Below are positions 4,879 through 21,359 of a stretch of DNA of 37,818 nt, piece by piece. Made by a program: the position numbers and the translations under genes. Within the stretch, counting starts at the first letter, position 1. Each line of letters starts with the position of its first letter. The notes beneath the pieces were generated by a model. It saw nothing but the letters and a program-made list of their open reading frames with translations. It searched no databases and had not been told where the DNA came from. The stretch is taken from assembly GCA_965372715.1 (NCBI GenBank), contig CBDVDH010000038.1, positions 1 to 37,818 on the forward strand, read 5' to 3'. The DNA comes from an uncultured bacterium (GTDB lineage: Bacteria; B130-G9).

Positions 4879-6372
4879 TTACCTCGTGGCACTATTGCAA
4901 TTGATGTTCTCAAGAGCGCTGGCAACTTGCAGCATTCCAGCCTCGTCAAACGACCTGGCCATCAGCTGCACCCCCACCGGTAGATCATGGTCTCTTGAGC
5001 CAAATGGGATTGATATGGCCGGAAGGCCGGCGAGATTCGCCGGAATCGTGAAGATATCGGAAAGATACATCATCAACGGATCGTCGGTTTTCTCGCCTAT
5101 TTTGAACGCCTGTTGAGGGCTCGTTGGGCCCATAAGGAAATCCACCTTGTCAAACGCCTTGTTCAGGTCCTGAATTATCAAGGTTCGCGCCTTTTGCGCT
5201 TTGAGATAGTAAGCGCCGTAATATCCGGTACTTAGAACAAACGTGCCAAGCGCTATCCTCCGCTTCACTTCTTGCCCAAAACCTTCCTCTCTAGTCTTTC
5301 GATACATGTCAATGAGGTCGATGAAGGACGAGGCGCGAAAGCCGTATCTGACGCCGTCGTAGCGCAAAAGGTTGGAACTGGTCTCTGCCGTGCAGAGAAT
5401 GTAATAGACCGCCACTGCGTAGTTCAGATGCGGCAACGAGATCGGGATTATCTCGGCCCCGAGGCGCTCAAGAGCGCGCAGAGCATTCTGTATGATTTCC
5501 CTCACGGCCGGGGAGACCTCGCCCTCGACATGTTCCCTAATGAGCCCGATCTTAACGCCCGAAATCTCGCGGTCGAGCAGCTCGCTGTAGTTCGGCACGG
5601 GGCGGTTCACCGAGGTCGAATCCCTGGGATCATATCCGGCGATTACTTCGAGGAGAAGAGCGGCGTCGGGGACGTTCGTGGTTATCGGCCCAATCTGATC
5701 GAACGAGGGGGCGAACGCGACGAGCCCGTATCGAGAGACTCGGCCATAGGTTGGCTTGAGACCTACGACGCCGCAGAAGGACGCGGGCTGGCGGATAGAG
5801 CCTCCCGTATCAGTGCCGAGCGCACACGGCGCACAGCCGGCAGCAACTGAGGCGGTTGAGCCGCCGCTCGAGCCTCCCGGCGAACGTTCCAGGTCGCACG
5901 GATTTCTTGTTATCCCGAAAAAGGAAGTCTCAGTTGACGAGCCCATAGCGAACTCATCTAGGTTGGGTTTCCCGATTATTATCGCCCCGGCGGAGATGAT
6001 CTTCTCCGTTACCGTGGCGTCGTAGGGGGATACGAAGTTCTCCAGAATCCTCGAGCCGCACGTGGTTGTCCCGCCTGACACGCATATATTGTCTTTAACC
6101 GCGATTGGGACGCCAAAGAGAGGCATTCTGGACCGGGCATCACTCGCAAATGAATCGAGGGCCCTGGCTCGTTCCAGAGCCCCCTCATCATAAAGGGTTA
6201 TGAACGCGTTCAGCTGGGGCTGCCTATCGTGCGCCCTTGCTAGGAAAGACTTGGTGGCCTCGACGGCCGACAACTCGCCCGCGACAATTCGGCTCTTCAG
6301 CTCCGATACCGAGAGCCCACAAATGCTCGTCAAACTCTCCCTCTGCGATAGCCGTAGGTTGCAGGCGTCCAC
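4879..6372 (-). CDS. gatA: Asp/Glu-tRNA amidotransferase subunit A
   Basis: Amidase signature VKDN, PGGSSGG, GTDTGGSIRQPA; GatA-specific EGFGQEVKRRI and YYLKAQK. Confidence 0.96.
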   Translation of the reverse strand: MDACNLRLSQRESLTSICGLSVSELKSRIVAGELSAVEATKSFLARAHDRQPQLNAFITLYDEGALERARALDSFASDARSRMPLFGVPIAVKDNICVSGGTTTCGSRILENFVSPYDATVTEKIISAGAIIIGKPNLDEFAMGSSTETSFFGITRNPCDLERSPGGSSGGSTASVAAGCAPCALGTDTGGSIRQPASFCGVVGLKPTYGRVSRYGLVAFAPSFDQIGPITTNVPDAALLLEVIAGYDPRDSTSVNRPVPNYSELLDREISGVKIGLIREHVEGEVSPAVREIIQNALRALERLGAEIIPISLPHLNYAVAVYYILCTAETSSNLLRYDGVRYGFRASSFIDLIDMYRKTREEGFGQEVKRRIALGTFVLSTGYYGAYYLKAQKARTLIIQDLNKAFDKVDFLMGPTSPQQAFKIGEKTDDPLMMYLSDIFTIPANLAGLPAISIPFGSRDHDLPVGVQLMARSFDEAGMLQVASALENINCNSATR

Positions 6373-6524: not shown

Positions 6525-6701
6525 TTAGATAATCTTGTCCTCTTCTTCCTTTTTCTTGCCTCTCCAGACGTCCCGAACGATCCCGTAGATTGTCAGGCCC
6601 AACGCGATCGTTACCGACGACCAGAGCATCATGATGAATAGCATGATGACGGTATTAAAGAGGCCCTCTTCAACCGTGCTGAATTGCAGGTCAAAACTCA
6701 T
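6525..6701 (-). CDS. Small single-pass membrane protein, 58 aa (not in ORF track)
   Basis: Hand translation MSFDLQFSTVEEGLFNTVIMLFIMMLWSSVTIALGLTIYGIVRDVWRGKKKEEEDKII*; GGAGGTGA RBS 6 nt upstream; hydrophobic segment followed by a basic cluster. Confidence 0.7.
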   Translation of the reverse strand: MSFDLQFSTVEEGLFNTVIMLFIMMLWSSVTIALGLTIYGIVRDVWRGKKKEEEDKII

Positions 6702-6852
6702 GTAAAGTCACCTCCCTCTGAACAAGGCGTTATTTCGGATATCCAATATCATTCCTGGCATTACCCTCAATAACACTGTAGCTAGCAGGCAGGCATCCGT
6801 CAAGCGTTGAGGCCTCCCCCGAAAAATCAGATTGGGCCGAACGAAGAGGACC

Positions 6853-7280
6853 TTTTGGAGTGCGGCGGCTGTGCGTCCTGAAAGCTGTGGTATGTCCGAG
6901 TTGGTGAGAGGCCAACCCGCTCGCCCAAAGGCATGGGAGCGGCAACCGAGTCTTGGGAGCATATCAGAAACGAAGTCAGCGAATCGAGCTGAGCGAGATG
7001 AGCAAATGATGTGTTCTAAGCGTAGATAGGGCAGACTTCGCCATAGTAGCCTGTGGCTATGTCGGCTGAAAAGGAGTTCGAGGTGTGAGGGTAATCCCCG
7101 AAACCACTGTCGTTGACGTGCGCCGCTTTCACTTGCCGCGGCCTGACGCGGCGCCGGTTCGCTTCGATTAACGTCCGTATCTTCGAATCGCAATCTGCGA
7201 GGTCGAAGGAGCCGTCCATCAGAGGGTGGTGTCGAGCCACCACCAATGAAAGCGGCGTCAAGCCGCCGCAGTCCGAAAAA
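6853..7280. repeat. Inverted REP pair (ggagtgcggcggcttgacgccgcttt type); left copy interrupted
   Basis: Right copy aaagcggcgtcaagccgccgcagtccgaaaaa at 7249-7280; left copy split into ttttggagtgcggcggct (6853-6870) and cgccgctttca (about 7121-7131); each has a second inner hairpin. Confidence 0.7.
6871..7117 (+). mobile_element. Group II intron 5' fragment (partial domain I); no RT ORF and no domain V/VI
   Basis: Begins with GTGCG; contains ggtgagaggcc, ggcaaccgagtcttggg, stem gagcatatca/tgatgtgttc, ctaagcgtagataggg and ccccgaaa in the order recalled for bacterial group IIB domain I. Confidence 0.65.
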
Positions 7281-7390
7281 GCACAGCCTGCCTCGTGCAG
7301 TATGAGTTTTCGGGCGTCTGACGCATAAGGCCGGCCCATTCATGATTGTTGTTTCTCCGGGAGCTTTGTGTCATAAACGCTAGGTCAAAC

Positions 7391-7413
7391 GGCGGTTCGT
7401 GAACCGCCCCTAC
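7391..7413 (-). repeat. GTAG-family REP
   Basis: Minus strand gtaggggcggttcacgaaccgcc with a perfect hairpin. Confidence 0.8.
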
Positions 7414-7439
7414 AACACATTTCCAAGGGACAATTGCAG

Positions 7440-8558
7440 ATGTTGAAGTTTGAGATCGAGGCGCGAGCTGACAGGAGCGCGGCCAGGGTGGGCAGGCTCA
7501 CGGTCAACGGGCGGACGGCCGAGACGCCGGCCTTCTTTCCTGTGGGGACGCAGGGGACCGTGAAGGCCGTTGCACAGAAGGAGCTCGCCGCACACGGTGT
7601 GCAGGGGATGCTCTGCAACCTCTATCATCTGTATCTCCGGCCCGGAATCGATGTGGTCGAGGCGGCGGGCGGGCTGCACAAGTTCATCAACTGGGATTGG
7701 CTGATAATAACCGACAGCGGCGGCTTTCAGGTATATAGCCTAAAAAGCCTGCGGAAGATCGAGCCTGAAGGCGTTCATTTCGTCTCTCATCTCGACGGCT
7801 CGTCGCACCTCTTCACGCCCGAGAACGTTATAGAGATGCAGATGAGGCTTGGTTCCGACGTAGCCATGGTTCTGGACGAGTGTGTGGAGTATCCGACGAC
7901 GTTCGATTACGCCCACAACTCGATGAACCTGACGCTCGAGTGGGCAAAGCGGTCGTCAAAACGGCTCGGCCAGGGGACCGCGATCTTTGGAATTGTTCAG
8001 GGCGCGACGTTTCCTGACCTTCGGGTCGAATGCGCAAGGCGTTTGACTGAGCTGGACTTCGACGGCTACGCCATAGGCGGGCTGGCGGTTGGCGAGGCGA
8101 AGGACACGATGTTCGAGATGGTGAGGGTCTGCACTGCGGAGCTGCCGCCGGATAAGCCGCGGTATTTGATGGGCGTGGGCTTCGGAGTTGACATCGCGAG
8201 GGCGGTCTCATACGGGGTGGATATCTTCGATTGCGTGATGCCGACGAGGAATGCGCGAAACGGGACGCTGTTCACAGAAAGCGGCAGACTTGTGATAAAG
8301 AACACGCAGTATTCGCAGGATAACAGGCCCATCGAGGAGGACTGCGACTGCTACACTTGTCGCAACTTCAGCAGGTCATATCTGCGGCATCTTCACATTT
8401 CGGGAGAACTTCTCTCGCCGATGTTGAATAGTATCCACAACGTTCGGTATTATATCAGGTTGATGTCCCGGGTTCGGGATGCAATACGAAATGGCCAGTT
8501 TGAGGAATTCGTGGCCGAACTTGAGGCCAAACAGGCGAAGGAGAGTGATATTGCTTAA
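7440..8558 (+). CDS. tgt: tRNA-guanine transglycosylase (bacterial preQ1 type)
   Basis: PVGTQG, DSGGFQ, LDEC, GIVQG, GGLAVGE, YLMGVG, FDCVMPTRNARNG and Zn site CDCYTC..H. Confidence 0.97.
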   Translation: MLKFEIEARADRSAARVGRLTVNGRTAETPAFFPVGTQGTVKAVAQKELAAHGVQGMLCNLYHLYLRPGIDVVEAAGGLHKFINWDWLIITDSGGFQVYSLKSLRKIEPEGVHFVSHLDGSSHLFTPENVIEMQMRLGSDVAMVLDECVEYPTTFDYAHNSMNLTLEWAKRSSKRLGQGTAIFGIVQGATFPDLRVECARRLTELDFDGYAIGGLAVGEAKDTMFEMVRVCTAELPPDKPRYLMGVGFGVDIARAVSYGVDIFDCVMPTRNARNGTLFTESGRLVIKNTQYSQDNRPIEEDCDCYTCRNFSRSYLRHLHISGELLSPMLNSIHNVRYYIRLMSRVRDAIRNGQFEEFVAELEAKQAKESDIA

Positions 8559-16925: not shown

Positions 16926-19244
16926 GTGTTGATCCTCAACGTGTCCGCCGAAGCCAAGAGAAGGTCCGCGGCGGATTACGAGGCGCGGCTTGATGCGATC
17001 AAGCGTGCTGTGCTGTCGAGATACCCGGATACGGCGCCGGTTGACGACGTTGATAAGGCGTTCAGATTCGCGGCGGAATACCACCAGGGCCAGAAGCGAG
17101 TGTCTGGGGAGGACTTCATAGACCATCCACTCTCTGTGGCCGAGATTCTCACTAAGTGGGAGCTTGCGCCGGAGCTCATCATAGCCGCGTTGCTGCACGA
17201 CGTCTTGGAGGACGCGTCCCCCGAACACGTGGTCGGGCAAACCGCTGAAGGGGCATCCCTGCCGGACGCGTCGCGGAAAAGGGAGCGCTCAATCAATGCC
17301 AGGAAGCAGCTCAGAGACGACATAGGCGGTAGATTTGGAAACGACGTTGCGGAGATAGTCGAGGGGCTAACAAAAGTCGACCGGTTAGTGCTCGAATCAC
17401 GTGAGGAGCGAAGGCTTGAGAACCTGAAGCGATTCTTTGTGGCGGTGAGCAAGGACCTCAGAGTGGTGCCAATAAAACTCGCCGACCGGCTTCACAACAT
17501 GCGCACGCTGAAGTCGCTTGCCGACTGGAAACAGAAAAGAACGGCGAAAGAGACGCTGAACCTCTACGCGCCTCTGGCGTATCGTTTCGGGATGGGCGAG
17601 GTTCAGGCCGAGCTAGAGGACCTGGCTTTTGAATGCGTGTTACCCGAGATCTATAACAAGCTGGTAGAAAAGCTCAAGACGACTGAGGACCAGCGCGTCG
17701 CAGCGCTGAAGGCGGCGGAGAAAGCGTTCAGAAAGAGGCTCGCAGCGGCAGATGTATCAGCCACGATCACAACCCGCAGTAAGCACTACTACAGCATTTA
17801 TCGCAAGATGGTGCGACAGAGTCTGACGATCGATGAGGTGTTGGACATCGTTGGGATGAGGCTGATAGCGAAGACTGAGCGAGCCTGCTACCGCGTGCTG
17901 GGCGAGGTCCACTCCCTATGGCTCCCCATACCGGGGACATTCAAGGACTACATAGCGACGCCCAAGTCAAATATGTATCAGTCTTTACACACAGTTGTCC
18001 TCATCAACCCTGGCTATCAGATGGAGGTCCAGATTCGGACGGAGCGGATGCATCTTGTCGCCGAGCGAGGCATAGCGGCCCACTGGCGTTACAAGGCGAT
18101 AGTGGACAGAAGGGTCCTGGACAAGCTCTACAAGGAGAGCGACGTAAGTCTGTGGGTTGAGGAGTTCATTACCGGCTACATAGAAAGGGATAAGGGGACG
18201 GGGCTTTTGGACGGCATAAAGATGATGCTTCAGTCCGAAGACATCTACGTAATAACGCCCAAAGGCGAGATGAGAAGCTTCCCATATGGCGCGACGCTCA
18301 TCGACTTCGCATACAGCGTCCACTCTTCAGTTGGAAACCAGTTCGTGTCGGGTAGGGTCGGTGGGGTTCAGAAACAACCGGACTACCAGCTGAAGACGGG
18401 CGACGTCGTCGAGATCATAACGGATAAAAAGGCGAGGCCCAAGAAGGAGTGGCTGAAGTTCGCCAAGACACCCTATGCTCGGCATGCTATACAGAAGTGG
18501 TTCAAAGTCGAAGAGCGACACCTAATGGGAGAGATAGGTAAGTCGGTGCTGGAGGAGAAACTCAGGATGGCCCGCGTCCCCACCAGGGAATTCTACAAAT
18601 CCCGTGCTCTGGCGACGTTCCTTGACAAGAGCGGCCTGTCAGACATAACCGATCTGTTCGTCAAACTCTCGACTGGCAAGATAAAGCTCATTCATGCGCT
18701 CCAGGCGGTCTTGCCCAAGAACCTCTACGAGAACGTGCATACGCTTAAGATATCGAAATCCCCTCCTGAGGAGGACCTGTTCAACCGGATACGTGCCTAC
18801 AAAAAGGGGCTCGTCATCTCCGACACGACGAGCTCGGAGGTGCTTCTCGCTAAGTGCTGCCATCCAGTGCCGGGCGACCGCCTAGTCGGATATGTCAAGC
18901 GGGGAAGCGGCGTCTCTGTCCACAGAGTCGAGTGTAAACAGATCGAGCGGCTGCTGCCGGACAGCATAAGAATAATAAGAAACATCAGATGGAGCGTGCC
19001 CAAATCCAGCCAGTTCGATGCCTGCTTGCGGCTCAATTCCACTGACATGAAGGGCATATTGGTCCGTATCACAAAGGCGCTGCTGGACACCGACATCGAC
19101 ATTCGGCAGATGAGAAGCGATAGGCTCCCGGACGGTTTGGTAACGTTTAAGATCGACGTTTTATGTTCTTCCGCCAGACAGATCGAGAAGGCGATGGATG
19201 AGTTGAAGGACATCGAGGGAATGATTGACATAGAAAGACAATAA
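16926..19244 (+). CDS. rel: Bifunctional (p)ppGpp synthetase/hydrolase (long RSH)
   Basis: HD motif LHDVLED, IKLADRLHNMRT, KDYIATPK..YQSLHT, EVQIRT, TGS (IDFAYSVH), AKCCHPVPGD and C-terminal ACT. Confidence 0.95.
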   Translation: MLILNVSAEAKRRSAADYEARLDAIKRAVLSRYPDTAPVDDVDKAFRFAAEYHQGQKRVSGEDFIDHPLSVAEILTKWELAPELIIAALLHDVLEDASPEHVVGQTAEGASLPDASRKRERSINARKQLRDDIGGRFGNDVAEIVEGLTKVDRLVLESREERRLENLKRFFVAVSKDLRVVPIKLADRLHNMRTLKSLADWKQKRTAKETLNLYAPLAYRFGMGEVQAELEDLAFECVLPEIYNKLVEKLKTTEDQRVAALKAAEKAFRKRLAAADVSATITTRSKHYYSIYRKMVRQSLTIDEVLDIVGMRLIAKTERACYRVLGEVHSLWLPIPGTFKDYIATPKSNMYQSLHTVVLINPGYQMEVQIRTERMHLVAERGIAAHWRYKAIVDRRVLDKLYKESDVSLWVEEFITGYIERDKGTGLLDGIKMMLQSEDIYVITPKGEMRSFPYGATLIDFAYSVHSSVGNQFVSGRVGGVQKQPDYQLKTGDVVEIITDKKARPKKEWLKFAKTPYARHAIQKWFKVEERHLMGEIGKSVLEEKLRMARVPTREFYKSRALATFLDKSGLSDITDLFVKLSTGKIKLIHALQAVLPKNLYENVHTLKISKSPPEEDLFNRIRAYKKGLVISDTTSSEVLLAKCCHPVPGDRLVGYVKRGSGVSVHRVECKQIERLLPDSIRIIRNIRWSVPKSSQFDACLRLNSTDMKGILVRITKALLDTDIDIRQMRSDRLPDGLVTFKIDVLCSSARQIEKAMDELKDIEGMIDIERQ

Positions 19245-19262
19245 GCGATTTAGGGGAAGAAG

Positions 19263-19649
19263 ATGCCAAAGCAGATTGTAATAACCAACAAGGCCCCGGC
19301 CGCCGTTGGCCCTTATTCGCAGGCGATTCTCGCCGGGGGCTTTCTCTTCGTGTCAGGTCAGATTGCCATCGACCCAGCAACCGGCAATCTCATTGAGGGC
19401 TCTCCTATCGAGCAGACGCGCCTCATAATGAGAAACATCGGCGCAATTCTCAAGCAGGCCGGCGCCTCATACAGCGACGTCGTCAAGTGCGAGATCTTTG
19501 TGACCGACCTTGGTCAGTTCAAAGCGATCAACGAGGTCTATGCCAAGTTCTTCGAGACCGAGCCGCCAGCAAGGGTAACGGTAGAGGTGTCCGCCCTGCC
19601 CCTTGGGGTTGACGTCGAGATCAGTGCGATTGCCTTCGTCAGGCCGTAA
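19263..19649 (+). CDS. ridA: RidA/YjgF/UK114 enamine deaminase
   Basis: APAAVGPYSQA, FVSGQI, INEVY, PPAR and LPLGVDVEI. Confidence 0.95.
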   Translation: MPKQIVITNKAPAAVGPYSQAILAGGFLFVSGQIAIDPATGNLIEGSPIEQTRLIMRNIGAILKQAGASYSDVVKCEIFVTDLGQFKAINEVYAKFFETEPPARVTVEVSALPLGVDVEISAIAFVRP

Positions 19650-19694
19650 GGCTGTCCCGGACGCGGTGAGTATGGCTTACTAACGGGCAGTGAG

Positions 19695-21359
19695 ATGACG
19701 CGACAGATACCGTACAAGGAATCGCTCACAGTTGAGTTTAAGAGCGACCGGGCCGGCTATTCGGACAAGGAATTGGTTGAGTCCGTAGTTTGCATGGCCA
19801 ATGCCGAGGGTGGTGTCATCTATCTGGGTGTCGAGAATGACGGGACAGTCACAGGTCTTTGCAGCAAGCATCGCGATATGTCGGGTCTGGAAGCACTGAT
19901 TCTTAACAGAACCAAACCACCCGTTGCCGTTCACTCACGCGAAATCGTGGAAAGGGGCAAACAGGTTGCGGTAGTTGAAGTGCCAAAGATCACGTCCGCT
20001 CATCCAGTCTCAACCACGGGAGGGAAAGTGCTGCGTAGAAGGCTTGATGCGCACGGCGACCCGCAGTGCGCTCCGTTCTATCCGGATGAGTGGGACAGCC
20101 GCACTTCGAGCTTGAGAAAACTCGATTATTCGGCCCTGCCGGTCGAGGCGTGCGATGAGGACGACTTCGACAAGCTGGAACGACACCGGCTAAGAAGGGC
20201 GATTGAGCGCAACAGGAGAGGAGACAAGTCGCTGCTTGGGCTTTCGGATGGGGAACTCGACCGCGCGCTCGGTCTATGCACGGCCGTAGAGGGGACAGTC
20301 AGGCCCACGGTCGCCGGGTTGCTGCTAATTGGCCGAGAGACCTCACTACGTCAACACATACCCACTCACGAGCTGGCGTTTCAAGTGATGGAGGGCACGA
20401 GAGTTCGCGTCAATGATTTCTATCACACTCCTCTGCTAGCGGCTTTTGAGCGAATCGAAGAGCAGTTCGGAGCAAGAACCGACGAACGCGAGCTTCAGAT
20501 CGGCATGTTCAGAGTGCCAGTCCCCTCGTACGACGGAAGAGCATTCCGTGAGGCGCTGGCCAATGCCGTGGTCCACCGAGACTACACGCGACTCGGAGCC
20601 GTCCATGTTCGCATGGTCCCGGGCGCCATTGAGATCAGCAATCCGGGTGGATTCGTGGAAGGAGTAACTCTGCAAAACATCCTAGTGACGGAGCCGCGCC
20701 CGCGCAATCCACTACTCGCCGACATATTCAAGCGAATAGGCATCGTTGAGCGGACTGGTAGGGGCGTTAGCATCATTTTCGAGGGAACACTTCGCTACGG
20801 ACGGGAAGCGCCCAACTACGACATGTCGAACGAGACCAGCGTGGTTGCTCACATCCCTGGAGGAGAGGCTGACCTGGCTTTCCTTGGACTCGTCCTTGAA
20901 CAGGAGAGTAAAACTCAGCAGGCAATCACAATCGACATTCTGCTCGCGTTGCGAGCGCTCCGTGATAATCGGGAGATTGACACGCAATACCTCTCGAGGA
21001 TCATCCAGAAAGACCAGTCGGGCGCAAGAGCAGTCCTCGAGCGGCTGATCGAACAGGGACTTGCTGATCGAAAAGGAGCTAAGAGGGGTAGGTCGTACAT
21101 GTTTTCTGCCCTTGTTTACAGGAAGCTCGGCATACCGGCAGGATACGTGCATCAGCGCGGCTTTGATCGGCTTCAACAGGAGAGCATGATCAGGAATTGG
21201 GTTGAAGCACATGGCAAGATCACGCGGCGTGATGTCTCCTCGCTTTGCAGATTGACCCTTCGCCAGGCAGGCTATGTCCTGAAGCGAATGTCCGACAAGG
21301 GGGTTGTTGACCTAGTTGGAATGGGAAGAAATGCATATTATGTGCGCGGGACAGATTGA
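19695..21359 (+). CDS. Schlafen/AlbA_2 + HATPase-like (RecG C-term-like) + winged-helix protein
   Basis: ESLTVEFKS and MANAEGGVIYLGV; REALANAVVHRDY and PRNPLLADIF..IVERTGRG; two C-terminal wHTH segments. Confidence 0.9.
   Translation: MTRQIPYKESLTVEFKSDRAGYSDKELVESVVCMANAEGGVIYLGVENDGTVTGLCSKHRDMSGLEALILNRTKPPVAVHSREIVERGKQVAVVEVPKITSAHPVSTTGGKVLRRRLDAHGDPQCAPFYPDEWDSRTSSLRKLDYSALPVEACDEDDFDKLERHRLRRAIERNRRGDKSLLGLSDGELDRALGLCTAVEGTVRPTVAGLLLIGRETSLRQHIPTHELAFQVMEGTRVRVNDFYHTPLLAAFERIEEQFGARTDERELQIGMFRVPVPSYDGRAFREALANAVVHRDYTRLGAVHVRMVPGAIEISNPGGFVEGVTLQNILVTEPRPRNPLLADIFKRIGIVERTGRGVSIIFEGTLRYGREAPNYDMSNETSVVAHIPGGEADLAFLGLVLEQESKTQQAITIDILLALRALRDNREIDTQYLSRIIQKDQSGARAVLERLIEQGLADRKGAKRGRSYMFSALVYRKLGIPAGYVHQRGFDRLQQESMIRNWVEAHGKITRRDVSSLCRLTLRQAGYVLKRMSDKGVVDLVGMGRNAYYVRGTD

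What the first reader, a model, noticed from the sequence alone, without database searches (positions are those of the whole stretch)
6853..7280. Group II intron 5' remnant inserted in the loop of a REP hairpin
Seen: the left member of an inverted REP pair is split after ggagtgcggcggct. The ~247-nt insert starts exactly with GTGCG, and the REP resumes at (tgacgtg)cgccgctttca, matching the intact right copy. The insert has stable stems and motifs (ggcaaccgagtcttggg, ctaagcgtagataggg, ccccgaaa). Established: group II introns start with GUGYG, and class IIC introns target hairpins such as terminators and attC sites. Inference: this is a IIB-like intron lineage that homes into a multicopy REP family and was later truncated, possibly by recombination between short matching sequences at the junction. 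REP homing would give an intron many neutral landing sites.
Basis: partly seen in the sequence, partly recalled or inferred. Interest (0 to 1): 0.72.

Follow-up and report, generated by a model that had tools for sequence, protein, structure and literature searches.

The report
Dead group II intron in REP hairpin
A 247-base wreck of a self-splicing mobile intron sits exactly in the loop of a small repeated DNA hairpin, and its better-preserved sister copies show that this intron lineage uses such multicopy hairpins as its landing site.

Summary
Window 6853-6870 and 7118-7280 are the two parts of one member of a ~160-190-nt repeat family: 30 long and 16 short copies in this genome. They are split in the loop of the left hairpin by a 247-nt insert (6871-7117) that starts with GTGCG.

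The insert is a group II intron remnant. On its own it scores below threshold on Rfam RF02005 (26.5 bits, cut-off 49). It is 96% identical to a longer copy that passes (51.6 bits), and relatives in sister genomes score 76-100 bits.

It is an internal deletion, not a plain 5' fragment. It keeps the last four bases and the exact 3' junction, but has lost the EBS1 loop, D2-D6 and the reverse-transcriptase gene.

Fifteen 5' junctions in four related genomes all lie in GC-rich hairpin arms. The EBS1 loop changes together with the 5' exon. Intron copies are far more alike than the repeats that carry them.

An EBS2-like loop supports the IIB-like reading. This is a new variant of known intron homing. 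Earlier, unchecked notes of this scan report hairpin-homing introns on other DNA.

The parts
6853..6870 (+). 5' half of the left terminal hairpin of the REP-like element, which serves as the 5' exon. IBS1 is 6865-6870 (GCGGCT). The candidate IBS2 is 6859-6862 (AGTG).
   Evidence: 18/18 identical to the left end of intron-free family members such as C26 and C34. 89% complementary to 7261-7278. EBS1 of sister copies pairs with these six bases.
6871..7117 (+). Internally deleted, ribozyme-dead group II intron copy (247 nt).
   Evidence: 96.2% identical over 239 nt to G000:C48 and 98.2% over 167 nt to C107. C48 passes the RF02005 cut-off.
6871..6875 (+). GTGCG, the 5' splice-site consensus (GUGYG).
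   Evidence: Read. The same first 19 bases occur at all 15 5' junctions of relatives.
6907..7038 (+). Partial match to Rfam RF02005 (group-II-D1D4-6), which models part of domain 1.
   Evidence: 26.5 bits against a cut-off of 49, E 1.4e-5.
6968..7004 (+). 37-nt lineage-specific expansion in the loop of a long D1 hairpin.
   Evidence: Treated as a 38-nt insert by cmscan. Absent in G003 and G001:C22 copies. Contigs of three metagenome runs join 6967 to 7005.
7031..7070 (+). 40-nt palindromic mini-element inserted into the intron.
   Evidence: Absent at this point in G001:C38, G003 and G001:C22 copies. Contigs of three runs join 7030 to 7071. Twelve copies of at least 30 nt occur elsewhere in the genome.
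7104..7109 (+). Candidate EBS2 (CCACTG) in the asymmetric internal loop of D1.
   Evidence: The homologous loop tracks the exon in relatives. CACU can pair with AGUG at 6859-6862. Inference.
7113..7114 (+). Deletion junction. Everything from just before the EBS1 hairpin to the last four intron bases is missing.
   Evidence: Sister copies continue CCACTGTCGT(C/T)GAAGG.GCCGATG.... Metagenome contigs run on into that sequence from 7105-7116 (table 7).
7114..7117 (+). TGAC, the intron's 3' terminal bases (other copies read ...CTACTCGAC).
   Evidence: 3' junctions.
7118..7280 (+). Remainder of the REP-like element, which serves as the 3' exon: the 3' arm of hairpin 1, a second hairpin (GCCGCGGCCTGACGCGGC), the body and the right terminal hairpin.
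   Evidence: 93.5% and 93.9% identical to intron-free copies C87 and C30; 79-81% to the bodies next to other intron 3' ends.
7252..7269 (.). Intact right terminal hairpin GCGGCG-TCAAGC-CGCCGC. On the minus strand it is an unoccupied copy of the target.
   Evidence: Folds at -8.0 kcal/mol, z -2.04.

Best explanation
Window 6871-7117 is the inert relic of a mobile group II intron. The intron is IIB-like in RNA layout, belongs to Rfam type D1D4-6, and encodes a reverse transcriptase/maturase without an endonuclease domain.

The intron RNA reverse-spliced into the loop of the left GC-rich hairpin of a REP-like multicopy element lying between an amidase gene and tgt. Targeting was by base pairing. 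The six-base EBS1 loop reads the last three bases of the hairpin's 5' arm plus the first three loop bases (GCG|GCU). An EBS2-like loop may read AGUG a few bases upstream.

Because the protein lacks an endonuclease, cDNA priming would depend on nascent strands at a replication fork. This step is established for En-less introns but only inferred here.

The copy later lost everything from just before the EBS1 hairpin to its last four bases, through a deletion between short matching sequences. It had already taken up a 40-nt palindromic mini-element.

It can no longer splice or move. Its only present effect is to split one REP hairpin.

Shown: homology, junctions, covariation and independent insertions. 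Inferred: the priming route, and whether the folded hairpin (not only its sequence) is recognised.
For: Group II identity:
- RF02005 scores 26.5 bits for the window, 51.6 bits for the 96%-identical C48 copy, and 75.9-100 bits in G001/G003 copies.
- G003 has a canonical D5/D6 at 62.3 bits.
- The ORF in G003:C152 has RVT_1 at 68.6 bits, with the GsI-IIC RT (3e-41) and LtrA (2.7e-30) among its solved relatives.
- An IEP C-terminal remnant (...RRSQK...LPRPHITHP...) lies upstream of D5 in C51. It matches the En-less C-terminus of a full relative, which has no HNH domain in Pfam.

Target:
- 15 of 15 5' junctions in G000, G001, G002 and G003 lie after GC(G/C)G.GG.. of a hairpin arm. Eleven are the same REP left end.
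- 10 of 13 3' junctions resume with .GACGCCGC-type REP sequence.
- Three further REP-left sites occur in metagenome contigs L185, L201 and L202.

Base pairing:
- Seven copies keep the EBS1 hairpin. Pairing is 6/6 in four of them, with four different EBS1 sequences (GGUCGC, GCCUAC, GGCCGC, GGCCUC), 5/6 in two and 3/6 in one.
- 48 of 5040 permutations of exons reach the observed total.
- The same loop pairs with the exon in distant relatives.

Independent insertion:
- Intron parts are 92-99% identical to each other (window v. sister copies 93-98%), while the REP bodies next to them are 79-81% identical.
- The window's REP is 93.5-93.9% identical to intron-free copies.

Many empty sites: 147 perfect GCSGYG-N6-CRCSGC hairpins occur in the genome (294 counted on both strands).

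No protein family matches any of the 4 ORFs that overlap the insert.
Against: - The window fragment alone fails the Rfam cut-off and lacks EBS1, D5, D6 and the ORF, so its identity rests on homology to other copies.
- No reverse transcriptase was found in this genome (0 RVT_1 matches, 95.9% complete). No intact IEP was found in any of the five relatives searched.
- In genus g1 every D5 has its 5' strand replaced by a palindrome. RF00029 scores are 17.7-25.6 bits against a cut-off of 40. Copies with identical internal deletions nevertheless sit at different sites. That pattern needs gene conversion between copies or some other way of spreading.
- One copy (G001:C22) pairs only 3/6 with its exon.
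- Three 3' exons are not REP-like.
- The 3' exon start GTGC is found at no empty site.
- The copies are related, so junction counts and permutation figures overstate independence.
- The join C48-C51 is inferred from a 55-nt overlap at contig ends.
- The deletion junction is not verified on reads.
Confidence: 0.85

Rival explanations
1. There was one ancestral insertion and no REP-directed homing. A single intron landed by chance in one REP element, and the composite then multiplied passively with the repeat family, or by segmental duplication and recombination.
For: - C31 and C51 share the intron 3' end, the REP body and about 110 nt beyond it at 95.6%, so at least one pair is a duplicated composite.
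- All three G000 3' exons share the odd GTGC start.
- Crippled copies with identical deletions lie at different sites.
Against: - Intron parts are 92-99% identical to each other, but the carrying REP bodies only 79-81%. The window's REP is closest (93.5-93.9%) to intron-free copies.
- 5' exons differ at IBS1 positions, and EBS1 changes with them.
- Occupied sites have unrelated outer flanks in four genomes of three genera.
- 27 of 30 long REP copies are empty.
Confidence: 0.07
2. Targeting is by sequence only. The repeat is simply a multicopy stretch that matches EBS1 (and perhaps EBS2), as with introns that home into IS elements. The hairpin fold plays no part, so the 'loop' position is incidental.
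For: - Sister lineages with the same 5' end home into non-hairpin '..TGAATA.T.C.GGY|' sites that resemble the terminal repeat of another mobile element. There EBS1 and an EBS2-like loop track the exon.
- No consistent hairpin lies upstream of the 15 sites.
- EBS1 must open three base pairs of the stem in order to pair.
Against: - The six-base IBS1 pattern occurs 19,449 times in the genome, yet all 3 G000 5' junctions lie in the 123 hairpin sites. Longer sequence recognition would also explain this.
- The 4 'type-2' sites differ from REP upstream of -9, but G001:C17 again resumes with the hairpin's 3' arm. G001:C73's 3' exon could form an 8-bp stem with a type-2 5' exon, though the link between those two contigs is not shown.
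Confidence: 0.4
3. The internal deletion is an assembly artefact. The real locus carries a longer (ORF-less or full) intron, and the assembler collapsed it.
For: - This is a metagenome-type assembly of 112 contigs in which other intron copies end contigs (C13, C48, C31, C51, C107).
- No reads were available.
Against: - The junction shares only 2-4 bases, far below any assembler overlap.
- The contig is 37.8 kb with unique flanks on both sides.
- A comparable natural scar (the last 11 intron bases only) exists in G003:C162.
- The window copy has private substitutions: 9 mismatches against C48 over 239 nt.
Confidence: 0.05
4. The insert is not an intron but another structured RNA or a MITE that happens to begin with GTGCG.
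For: There is no Rfam match at gathering threshold in the window. The insert contains a 40-nt mini-element that is itself a repeat.
Against: It shows 96-98% identity to copies that pass RF02005 and that continue into an IEP remnant, D5 and D6. The only sub-threshold Rfam match of the region is to a group II family.
Confidence: 0.01

Closest known systems
Bacterial group II introns without an endonuclease domain that home by EBS/IBS pairing into other multicopy mobile DNA (for example RmInt1 in ISRm2011-2, E.c.I introns in IS elements)
   Same: A retroelement with an En-less IEP. The target is read by EBS1, with an EBS2-like loop. The target is itself a repeated selfish element, which offers many near-neutral sites. 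Fragmented and ORF-less copies outnumber intact ones. Basis: PMC3522654 passages, PMC4424553 passages.
   Different: The target here is an 18-nt palindromic hairpin of a REP-like repeat. The insertion point is the centre of its loop, so the two exons are the two arms of one hairpin. No IS or gene is involved.
Class C (IIC) introns that insert after terminator stem-loops or at attC sites
   Same: Association with DNA hairpins and intergenic, multicopy, low-cost sites, with an En-less IEP. The best solved relatives of the IEP fragment are IIC RTs (GsI-IIC 3e-41). Known target types come from PMC4424553 and PMC3001079.
   Different: - IIC introns sit downstream of the whole hairpin. Here the intron sits inside the loop, and no consistent hairpin lies upstream.
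- EBS1 pairs with 6-7 bases.
- An EBS2-like loop is present, whereas IIC introns have only EBS1 and EBS3 (PMC3522654).
- RF02005 does not ring in the Bacteroides thetaiotaomicron control, a species listed as holding a class C intron.
REP sequences as targets of mobile elements (ISPpu9/10, ISPa11, IS1397; Tobes and Pareja 2006, PMC1525189)
   Same: Palindromic extragenic repeats used as landing pads by another mobile element. The paper's table lists a Pseudomonas putida KT2440 group II intron as REP-associated in 2 of 9 copies (table passage seen).
   Different: In that paper the association is a minority of copies, and the passage seen shows no base-pairing analysis; its additional files were not seen. 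Here 11 of 15 5' junctions are the same repeat end, at one fixed position, with EBS1 covariation. No RAYT link was found for this repeat.
Group IIB introns next to attC-like hairpins in hypersaline and soda-lake integrons (Sonbol and Siam 2021, PMC7923331)
   Same: IIB-type, En-less introns, some of IEP class E, found truncated beside DNA secondary structures. The authors propose that such structures aid target recognition (abstract and sections 7 and 12 read).
   Different: Those introns lie after attC sites in cassette arrays, and only 3' fragments were found for two of them. No repeat-family homing or covariation was shown. The supplementary figures with the folds were not seen.
ORF-less and degenerate bacterial group II introns
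   Same: Copies that lost the IEP by internal deletion while keeping both ends. Per PMC4424553, such copies are said to occur nearly always in genomes with related IEP-bearing introns.
   Different: No RVT_1 gene at all was found in this genome, and D5 is disrupted in every copy of the genus. The family here appears extinct rather than mobilised in trans.

Membership tests
Group II intron (ribozyme part) | 5' end GUGYG | tested here: met
   GTGCG at 6871-6875. Identical in 15 of 15 related 5' junctions.
Group II intron (ribozyme part) | Domain 1 fold recognised by a curated covariance model at its gathering score | tested here: inconclusive
   The window copy scores 26.5 bits against a cut-off of 49 because it is truncated. 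The sister copy C48 scores 51.6 bits, and G001/G003 copies 75.9-100 bits.
Group II intron (ribozyme part) | Catalytic domain 5 and domain 6 with a 3' end AY | tested here: not met
   Deleted in the window copy; only TGAC remains. In G000 and G001 copies the 5' strand of D5 is replaced, and RF00029 scores are 17.7-25.6 bits against a cut-off of 40. G003 copies are canonical (62.3, 62.3 and 48.4 bits) and end ...CUACUCGAC. The lineage therefore meets the feature but this copy does not.
Group II intron (ribozyme part) | EBS1-IBS1 pairing with the 5' exon | tested here: met
   Tested on sister copies only, because the window copy has lost the loop. Pairing is 6/6 in 4, 5/6 in 2 and 3/6 in 1 of 7 copies. 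48 of 5040 permutations reach the observed total.
Group II intron (retroelement part) | Intron-encoded reverse transcriptase/maturase in domain 4 | tested here: not met
   None in the window and none in G000 (0 RVT_1 matches). A C-terminal remnant lies in C51. G003:C152 has a 228-aa interrupted ORF with RVT_1 at 68.4-68.6 bits.
IIB-like structural class (IEP classes B, D, E, F, CL) | EBS2-IBS2 pairing in addition to EBS1 | tested here: met
   The variable start of the asymmetric D1 internal loop pairs with exon positions about -6 to -12 in relatives, for example 9 bp in L139 and 5 bp in L162 and L194. The cognate total is 97.0 against a permuted mean of 88.6 (sd 3.5), and 32 of 2000 permutations reach it. 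In the REP lineage only 4 bp pair (CACU:AGUG), so support there is modest.
IIB-like structural class (IEP classes B, D, E, F, CL) | IEP falls in one of those clades in a reference tree | not tested
   No labelled reference set was at hand. Among solved structures, IIC RTs score best, but those of known class are C (GsI-IIC), ML (LtrA) and CL (6ME0), the last two labels recalled; none is known to me to be D, E or F.
Class C (IIC) introns | Insertion directly downstream of a stem-loop (terminator or attC) | tested here: not met
   The insertion lies inside the loop. Folding the 48 nt upstream of each of the 15 sites gives no shared hairpin.
Class C (IIC) introns | No EBS2 | tested here: not met
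   An EBS2-like signal is present.
REP/REPIN elements mobilised by RAYT transposases | Short extragenic palindromes in many copies, often as inverted pairs | tested here: met
   46 BLAST hits. 147 perfect hairpins of the motif. Terminal inverted hairpins in the window. The family is present in all five relatives searched.
REP/REPIN elements mobilised by RAYT transposases | A Y1 (RAYT) transposase gene flanked by the same palindromes | tested here: not met
   Four Y1_Tnp genes were found (78-92 bits). None has the hairpin motif within 1.2 kb. 'REP' is therefore used here descriptively.

The most novel reading that the evidence does not exclude
A IIB-type, endonuclease-less group II intron lineage in an uncultured bacterial family has taken the loop of a REP-like hairpin as its natural homing site. 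This would be a further natural target type beside gene or IS homing sites, terminators and attC. The guide loop (EBS1) reads the top of the hairpin's 5' arm plus half the loop, and it co-evolves with variants of the repeat. Insertion may require the hairpin to be opened or extruded as single-stranded DNA at replication forks. After the reverse transcriptase was lost, the crippled copies were kept alike by gene conversion. The result is nested selfish elements: REP, then intron, then a 40-nt mini-element and a TIR element.
Probability: 0.5. Interest if true: 0.6.

Novelty: new variant of a known kind. Interest (0 to 1): 0.5.

Why it matters
Bacterial group II introns are thought to survive by choosing sites where they do little harm. 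The review read here (PMC4424553) names three natural target types: homing sites, after terminators, and attC.

A lineage that homes into the loop of a multicopy palindromic repeat adds a fourth flavour. It gives a natural series of EBS1/IBS1 co-variants on one scaffold. It also shows how an intron family behaves when it has about a hundred empty sites but loses its reverse transcriptase: decay, shared deletions, and invasion by still smaller elements.

For genome annotation, it explains why REP-like repeats can appear 'split', and why contigs of such assemblies break there.

If hairpin structure proves to be part of recognition, the lineage could guide the design of introns that target structured or single-stranded DNA. 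The window copy itself is an inert fossil.

Tried and rejected
- **Rfam at gathering threshold on the whole window:** no match. The evalue scan was needed to see the remnant.
- **GIIM (PF08388) in the genome:** only a 14.3-bit chance-level hit elsewhere.
- **RVT_1 hits in G006:C343 and G002:C155:** these are 538-aa and 523-aa non-intron reverse transcriptases with no intron RNA beside them, so I set them aside.
- **PDB search with the 61-aa IEP C-terminal remnant:** only a chance hit (E 0.13).
- **IIC reading:** I considered it because the best solved relatives are IIC RTs and because the closest plasmid relative sits right after a palindrome upstream of umuD. I rejected it as the label because of the EBS2-like signal, the insertion geometry and the negative B. 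thetaiotaomicron control.
- **Assigning an IEP class (D, E or F):** not achieved. Papers on Kl.pn.I5 gave no class in the passages seen. The Rfam 15 paper only lists RF02005 among families improved.
- **First regex attempt at EBS2:** too strict, 11 of 14 loci not parsed. Replaced.
- **Type-2 sites in G000:** none found.
- **Orthologous locus in the sister species G001:** the two flanks lie on different contigs without the repeat or the intron, so the insertion could not be dated by an empty site.
- **Sequencing runs:** no RNA holder is listed and no run holds more than 13% of the words. Contigs of four runs cover only parts and none spans the stretch. Expression and the deletion junction therefore remain untested.
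- **One fold (L012:1580-1625):** aimed at the wrong coordinates and is not used.
- **Two calls failed on form:** (a search term was too long; paper not held).
Full report
**What is in the sequence.** Between an amidase-family gene (4879-6372, minus strand; Pfam Amidase 538.7 bits) and tgt (7434-8558, plus strand; Pfam TGT 499.1 bits) lies a member of a short repeat family. Its left end TTTTGGAGTGCGGCGGCT (6853-6870) is followed at 6871 by GTGCGTCC... The repeat resumes at 7118 with GTGCGCCGCTTTCACTTGCCGCGG... and runs to the right terminal hairpin at 7252-7269. The outer arms 6853-6870 and 7261-7278 are 89% complementary. The right hairpin folds at -8.0 kcal/mol, and 7 of 200 shuffles fold as well.

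blastn of 7113-7285 against the genome gives 46 hits at E<=1e-8, 30 of them at least 100 nt long. Twenty-seven of those 30 carry no insert, and most read ...TTTGGAGT GCGGCG GCTTGA CGCCGC TTT... across the point that is split here. The genome holds 147 perfect hairpins of the form GCSGYG-N6-CRCSGC (294 counted on both strands). The commonest loops are GCTTGA (62) and GCCTGA (38).

**The insert is a group II intron remnant.** At gathering thresholds Rfam finds nothing in the window. A permissive scan of 6700-7440 finds a single match, RF02005 (group-II-D1D4-6), at 6907-7038: 26.5 bits against a cut-off of 49, E 1.4e-5. A 128-position block of the model is missing.

The genome holds other copies of the insert:
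- C48:29971 to the contig end;
- C13:72406 to the contig end, together with C107:1-;
- 3' pieces at the starts of C31 and C51.

The window copy is 96.2% identical to C48 over 239 nt and 98.2% identical to C107 over 167 nt. C48 passes the RF02005 cut-off at 51.6 bits, and copies in related genomes score 100, 87.4, 77.9 and 75.9 bits.

C51 and C31 carry, just upstream of the repeat's 3' half, an IEP C-terminal remnant (...RRSQKVCKKRLYSLIDHEFALPRPHITHP...). It is followed by a D5/D6-like segment that ends ...CTACTCGAC|GTGCGCCGCTTTCAC. That is the same 3' junction as window 7117|7118.

The end of C48 overlaps the start of C51 by 55 nt. This suggests an ORF-less copy of about 790 nt, but the join is inferred, not proven.

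**What happened to the window copy.** Longer copies continue ...CCACTGTCGT(C/T)GAAGG(C/T)GCCGATG... into the EBS1 hairpin. The window reads ...CCACTGTCGT|TGAC|GTGCGCC. It therefore keeps about 243 nt of domain 1 and the last four bases of the intron. It has lost the EBS1 hairpin, the rest of D1, D2-D4 with the ORF, D5 and D6.

Contigs of other metagenomes run on from 7105-7116 into GAAGGTGCCGATG... (table 7), which marks the same breakpoint.

Before the deletion the intron had gained two additions:
- A 37-nt expansion of a D1 hairpin loop (6968-7004).
- A 40-nt palindromic mini-element (7031-7070). Both are absent from some relatives, and contigs of three runs join across each of them (table 5).

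The four ORFs that overlap the insert match no Pfam family. I could not check the deletion junction on reads, because no run holds more than 13% of the sampled words.

**Relatives and their landing sites.** A search of G000 and 60 other genomes found the intron only in the window's own family: 4 of its 6 other genomes, and 0 of 54 genomes from other families. RVT_1 is absent from G000. It is present, interrupted, in G003:C152 (68.6 bits; a 228-aa ORF), as a sub-cut-off fragment in G003:C96 (27.2 bits, cut-off 29.6), and in G001:C38 with a stop codon. G003 has three D5/D6 matches above the cut-off: 62.3, 62.3 and 48.4 bits.

I collected 15 distinct 5' junctions: 3 in G000, 6 in G001, 1 in G002 and 5 in G003. 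Eleven read (T)TTGGAG(T/C)GC..GG..|GTGCG, which is the left end of the same repeat. Four read small hairpin, about 9-12 nt, then (T/A)AGCCG(C/T)G....|GTGCG. The sequences upstream of those four are unrelated to one another.

Of 13 3' junctions, 10 resume with .G(A/G)C(G/A)CCGC... of the repeat. One of them (G003:C162) is a scar that keeps only the last 11 intron bases. The other three are different. G001:C17 combines a 'type-2' 5' exon with a REP 3' arm.

It added three new REP-left sites (L185, L201, L202) and one new type-2 site (L156).

More distant relatives sit at unrelated sites, as expected for other introns. These share 39-59% IEP identity (one further locus, L113, at 79%, carries the same 3' exon as G003:C96), and 13 of the 20 loci scanned have RF02005 RNA.

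**How the target is read.** In the hairpin ..GCCGAUG-loop-GCAGGC of D1, seven copies keep the loop. A six-base stretch at the aligned position pairs with the last six exon bases as follows:
- 6/6 in four copies: GGUCGC:GUGGCC, GCCUAC:GUGGGU, GGCCGC:GCGGCU and GGCCUC:GAGGCU;
- 5/6 in two copies;
- 3/6 in one copy.

Several differences are compensatory, for example exon A at -5 with U in EBS1, and exon G at -2 with C. Only 48 of 5040 permutations of exons among introns reach the observed total. The copies are related, so this figure is indicative rather than a probability.

The same loop pairs with the exon in the Klebsiella plasmid relative (ACUGU:ACAGU, read by eye) and in metagenomic sister lineages. 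IBS1 (GCG|GCU) consists of the top three bases of the hairpin's 5' arm plus the first three loop bases, so the intron sits in the centre of the loop.

The window copy has lost EBS1. Its exon GCGGCT would pair 6/6 (two of them G-U) with the GGUCGC of its sister C48 (matrix).

**IIB-like or IIC.** The IEP fragment's best solved relatives are IIC RTs: GsI-IIC at 3e-41, against LtrA at 2.7e-30 and chain 6ME0 at 4.3e-16. The solved relatives whose class I know are C (GsI-IIC), ML (LtrA) and CL (6ME0, recalled label); none of D, E or F.

Three results argue against IIC:
- The intron is inside the hairpin, not after it, and the 15 upstream regions share no hairpin.
- RF02005 does not ring in the Bacteroides thetaiotaomicron control, a species listed as carrying a class C intron (PMC3001079 methods passage). 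The Bacteroidaceae and Prevotella relatives carry RF01999 instead.
- The variable start of the asymmetric internal loop (GAAA-xxxxx-AUCGUC) pairs with exon positions about -6 to -12 in relatives: 9 bp in L139, 5 bp in L162 and L194. Over 23 distinct intron-exon pairs the cognate total is 97.0 against a permuted mean of 88.6 (sd 3.5), and 32 of 2000 permutations reach it.

IIC introns are described as having only EBS1 and EBS3 (PMC3522654 introduction passage). In the REP lineage itself the pairing is only 4 bp (CACU:AGUG), and the IEP class is still open. The C-terminus is of the En-less type: a full relative ends ...RRRSQK...LPHPRILHPFP... and shows only RVT_1 in Pfam.

**Homing versus hitch-hiking.** Intron parts are 92-99% identical to one another. 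The repeat body beside the window copy is only 79-81% identical to the bodies beside the other 3' ends, and 93.5-93.9% identical to the intron-free copies C87 and C30. Outer flanks are unrelated. This fits repeated insertion into repeat copies that had already diverged.

At least one duplication of a composite also occurred. C31 and C51 share the intron 3' end, the repeat and about 110 nt more at 95.6%.

In the sister species G001 the two flanks of the window locus lie on different contigs and carry neither repeat nor intron.

**State of the family.** In genus g1 (G000 and G001) every D5 has its 5' strand (CCGGAUGCGG in G003) replaced by the palindrome UUCGCCGCGCGGCGAA. RF00029 scores fall to 17.7-25.6 bits. 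G001:C17 and C40 share two identical internal deletions yet sit at different sites. I read this as concerted evolution by gene conversion among copies, which is an inference. Mobility of crippled copies is the alternative.

No intact IEP was found in the genomes searched, which are 86-96% complete draft assemblies that break at these repeats.

**Comparison with what is known.** The review by Zimmerly and Semper (PMC4424553, passages seen) names three bacterial target types: homing sites, after terminators, and attC. It also states that En-less introns use replication-fork primers.

Tobes and Pareja (PMC1525189, table passage seen) list a P. putida group II intron as REP-associated in 2 of 9 copies. 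Sonbol and Siam (PMC7923331; abstract and sections 7 and 12 read) report IIB introns beside attC-like folds.

My searches for 'group II intron' with 'repetitive extragenic palindromic' (9 papers) and with 'REP sequences' plus 'Pseudomonas putida' (2 papers) listed no title or abstract on a REP-loop-homing lineage with EBS covariation. Of these I read only passages of PMC1525189. Subscription journals and supplements were not searched.

Earlier unchecked notes of this scan describe REP- or hairpin-homing introns in other genomes. notes call this organism Coatesbacteria-like; I did not test that.

The repeat has no demonstrated RAYT. Four Y1_Tnp genes exist, but none has the hairpin motif within 1.2 kb.

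**Verdict.** The window copy is an inert fossil. The interest lies in the lineage, which is a variant of known retrohoming that uses the loop of a multicopy palindrome as its site.

Noticed in passing
window 7031-7070; also G000 C18:44632-44675, C14:26136-26176, C10:52743-52785 and others; C51:~252-345: A ~40-nt palindromic mini-element (AGACTTCGCCATAGTAGCC, a 2-5-nt loop, GGCTACGTCGGCTGAA) has 12 copies of at least 30 nt in the genome. A ~92-nt longer form lies in C51, and one copy sits inside the RT ORF of G001:C38. In contigs of cold-seep and marine-sediment runs this stretch reaches a summed word depth of up to 64,626, and empty-site joints are seen.
   Followed up: partly
G000 C13:72482-72531 and C107:1-53: A third copy of the intron is split after GGGAGTG by an element with terminal inverted repeats and TTAA ends (TTAACCCGAATAATTCAAGG... 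/ ...TTTATGAATAATACGGATTAA). Sister intron lineages in metagenomes home into '..TGAATA.T.C.GGY|' sites that resemble this terminal repeat.
   Followed up: partly
G000 C31:101-116, C51:357-372; G001:C72 upstream of tgt (L098 ~1470-1490): The 16-nt perfect palindrome TTCGCCGCGCGGCGAA replaces the 5' strand of domain 5 in all genus-g1 intron copies. Related TTCGCC-N-GGCGAA hairpins cap other intron stems, and one stands alone upstream of tgt in the sister species.
   Followed up: partly
window 7118-7126; G000 C31:176-184, C51:432-440: All three 3' exons in this genome begin GTGCGCCGC. This loop variant was not found at any intron-free copy of the repeat, and it repeats the intron's own first five bases. 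The cause is unknown: co-conversion, shared descent, or the scar of a tandem intron.
   Followed up: partly
L068/L103 (Klebsiella quasipneumoniae plasmid NZ_CP155712.1, about 17,000-21,000): Two tandem RF02005-type introns (183.7 bits) lie directly after the palindrome CTGTATATATATACAG upstream of umuD. The upstream copy begins TTGCG instead of GTGCG. The IEP is 55.5% identical to the G003 fragment, and the tblastn search reached its 5000-record limit, 3748 of the matching plasmid records being Klebsiella.
   Followed up: partly
L065 (G001:C103) 200-530; also G001:C63, C73: Decayed intron ORF regions in the sister species carry one to three tandem units of about 130 nt that begin GCGGATTGCGGATTAACCGCATGAAGTC.
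   Followed up: no
window 6525-6701 (minus strand): A 58-aa ORF with a hydrophobic core and a lysine/glutamate-rich tail lies just upstream of the repeat. The stretch is 95% conserved in the sister species, and the ORF has no Pfam match. It may be a real small membrane protein.
   Followed up: no
L133 (metagenome contig) 461-524: One copy of this intron lineage starts directly after the 3' end (...GAACTACTCGAC) of another copy. This is a tandem arrangement like the one on the Klebsiella plasmid.
   Followed up: no
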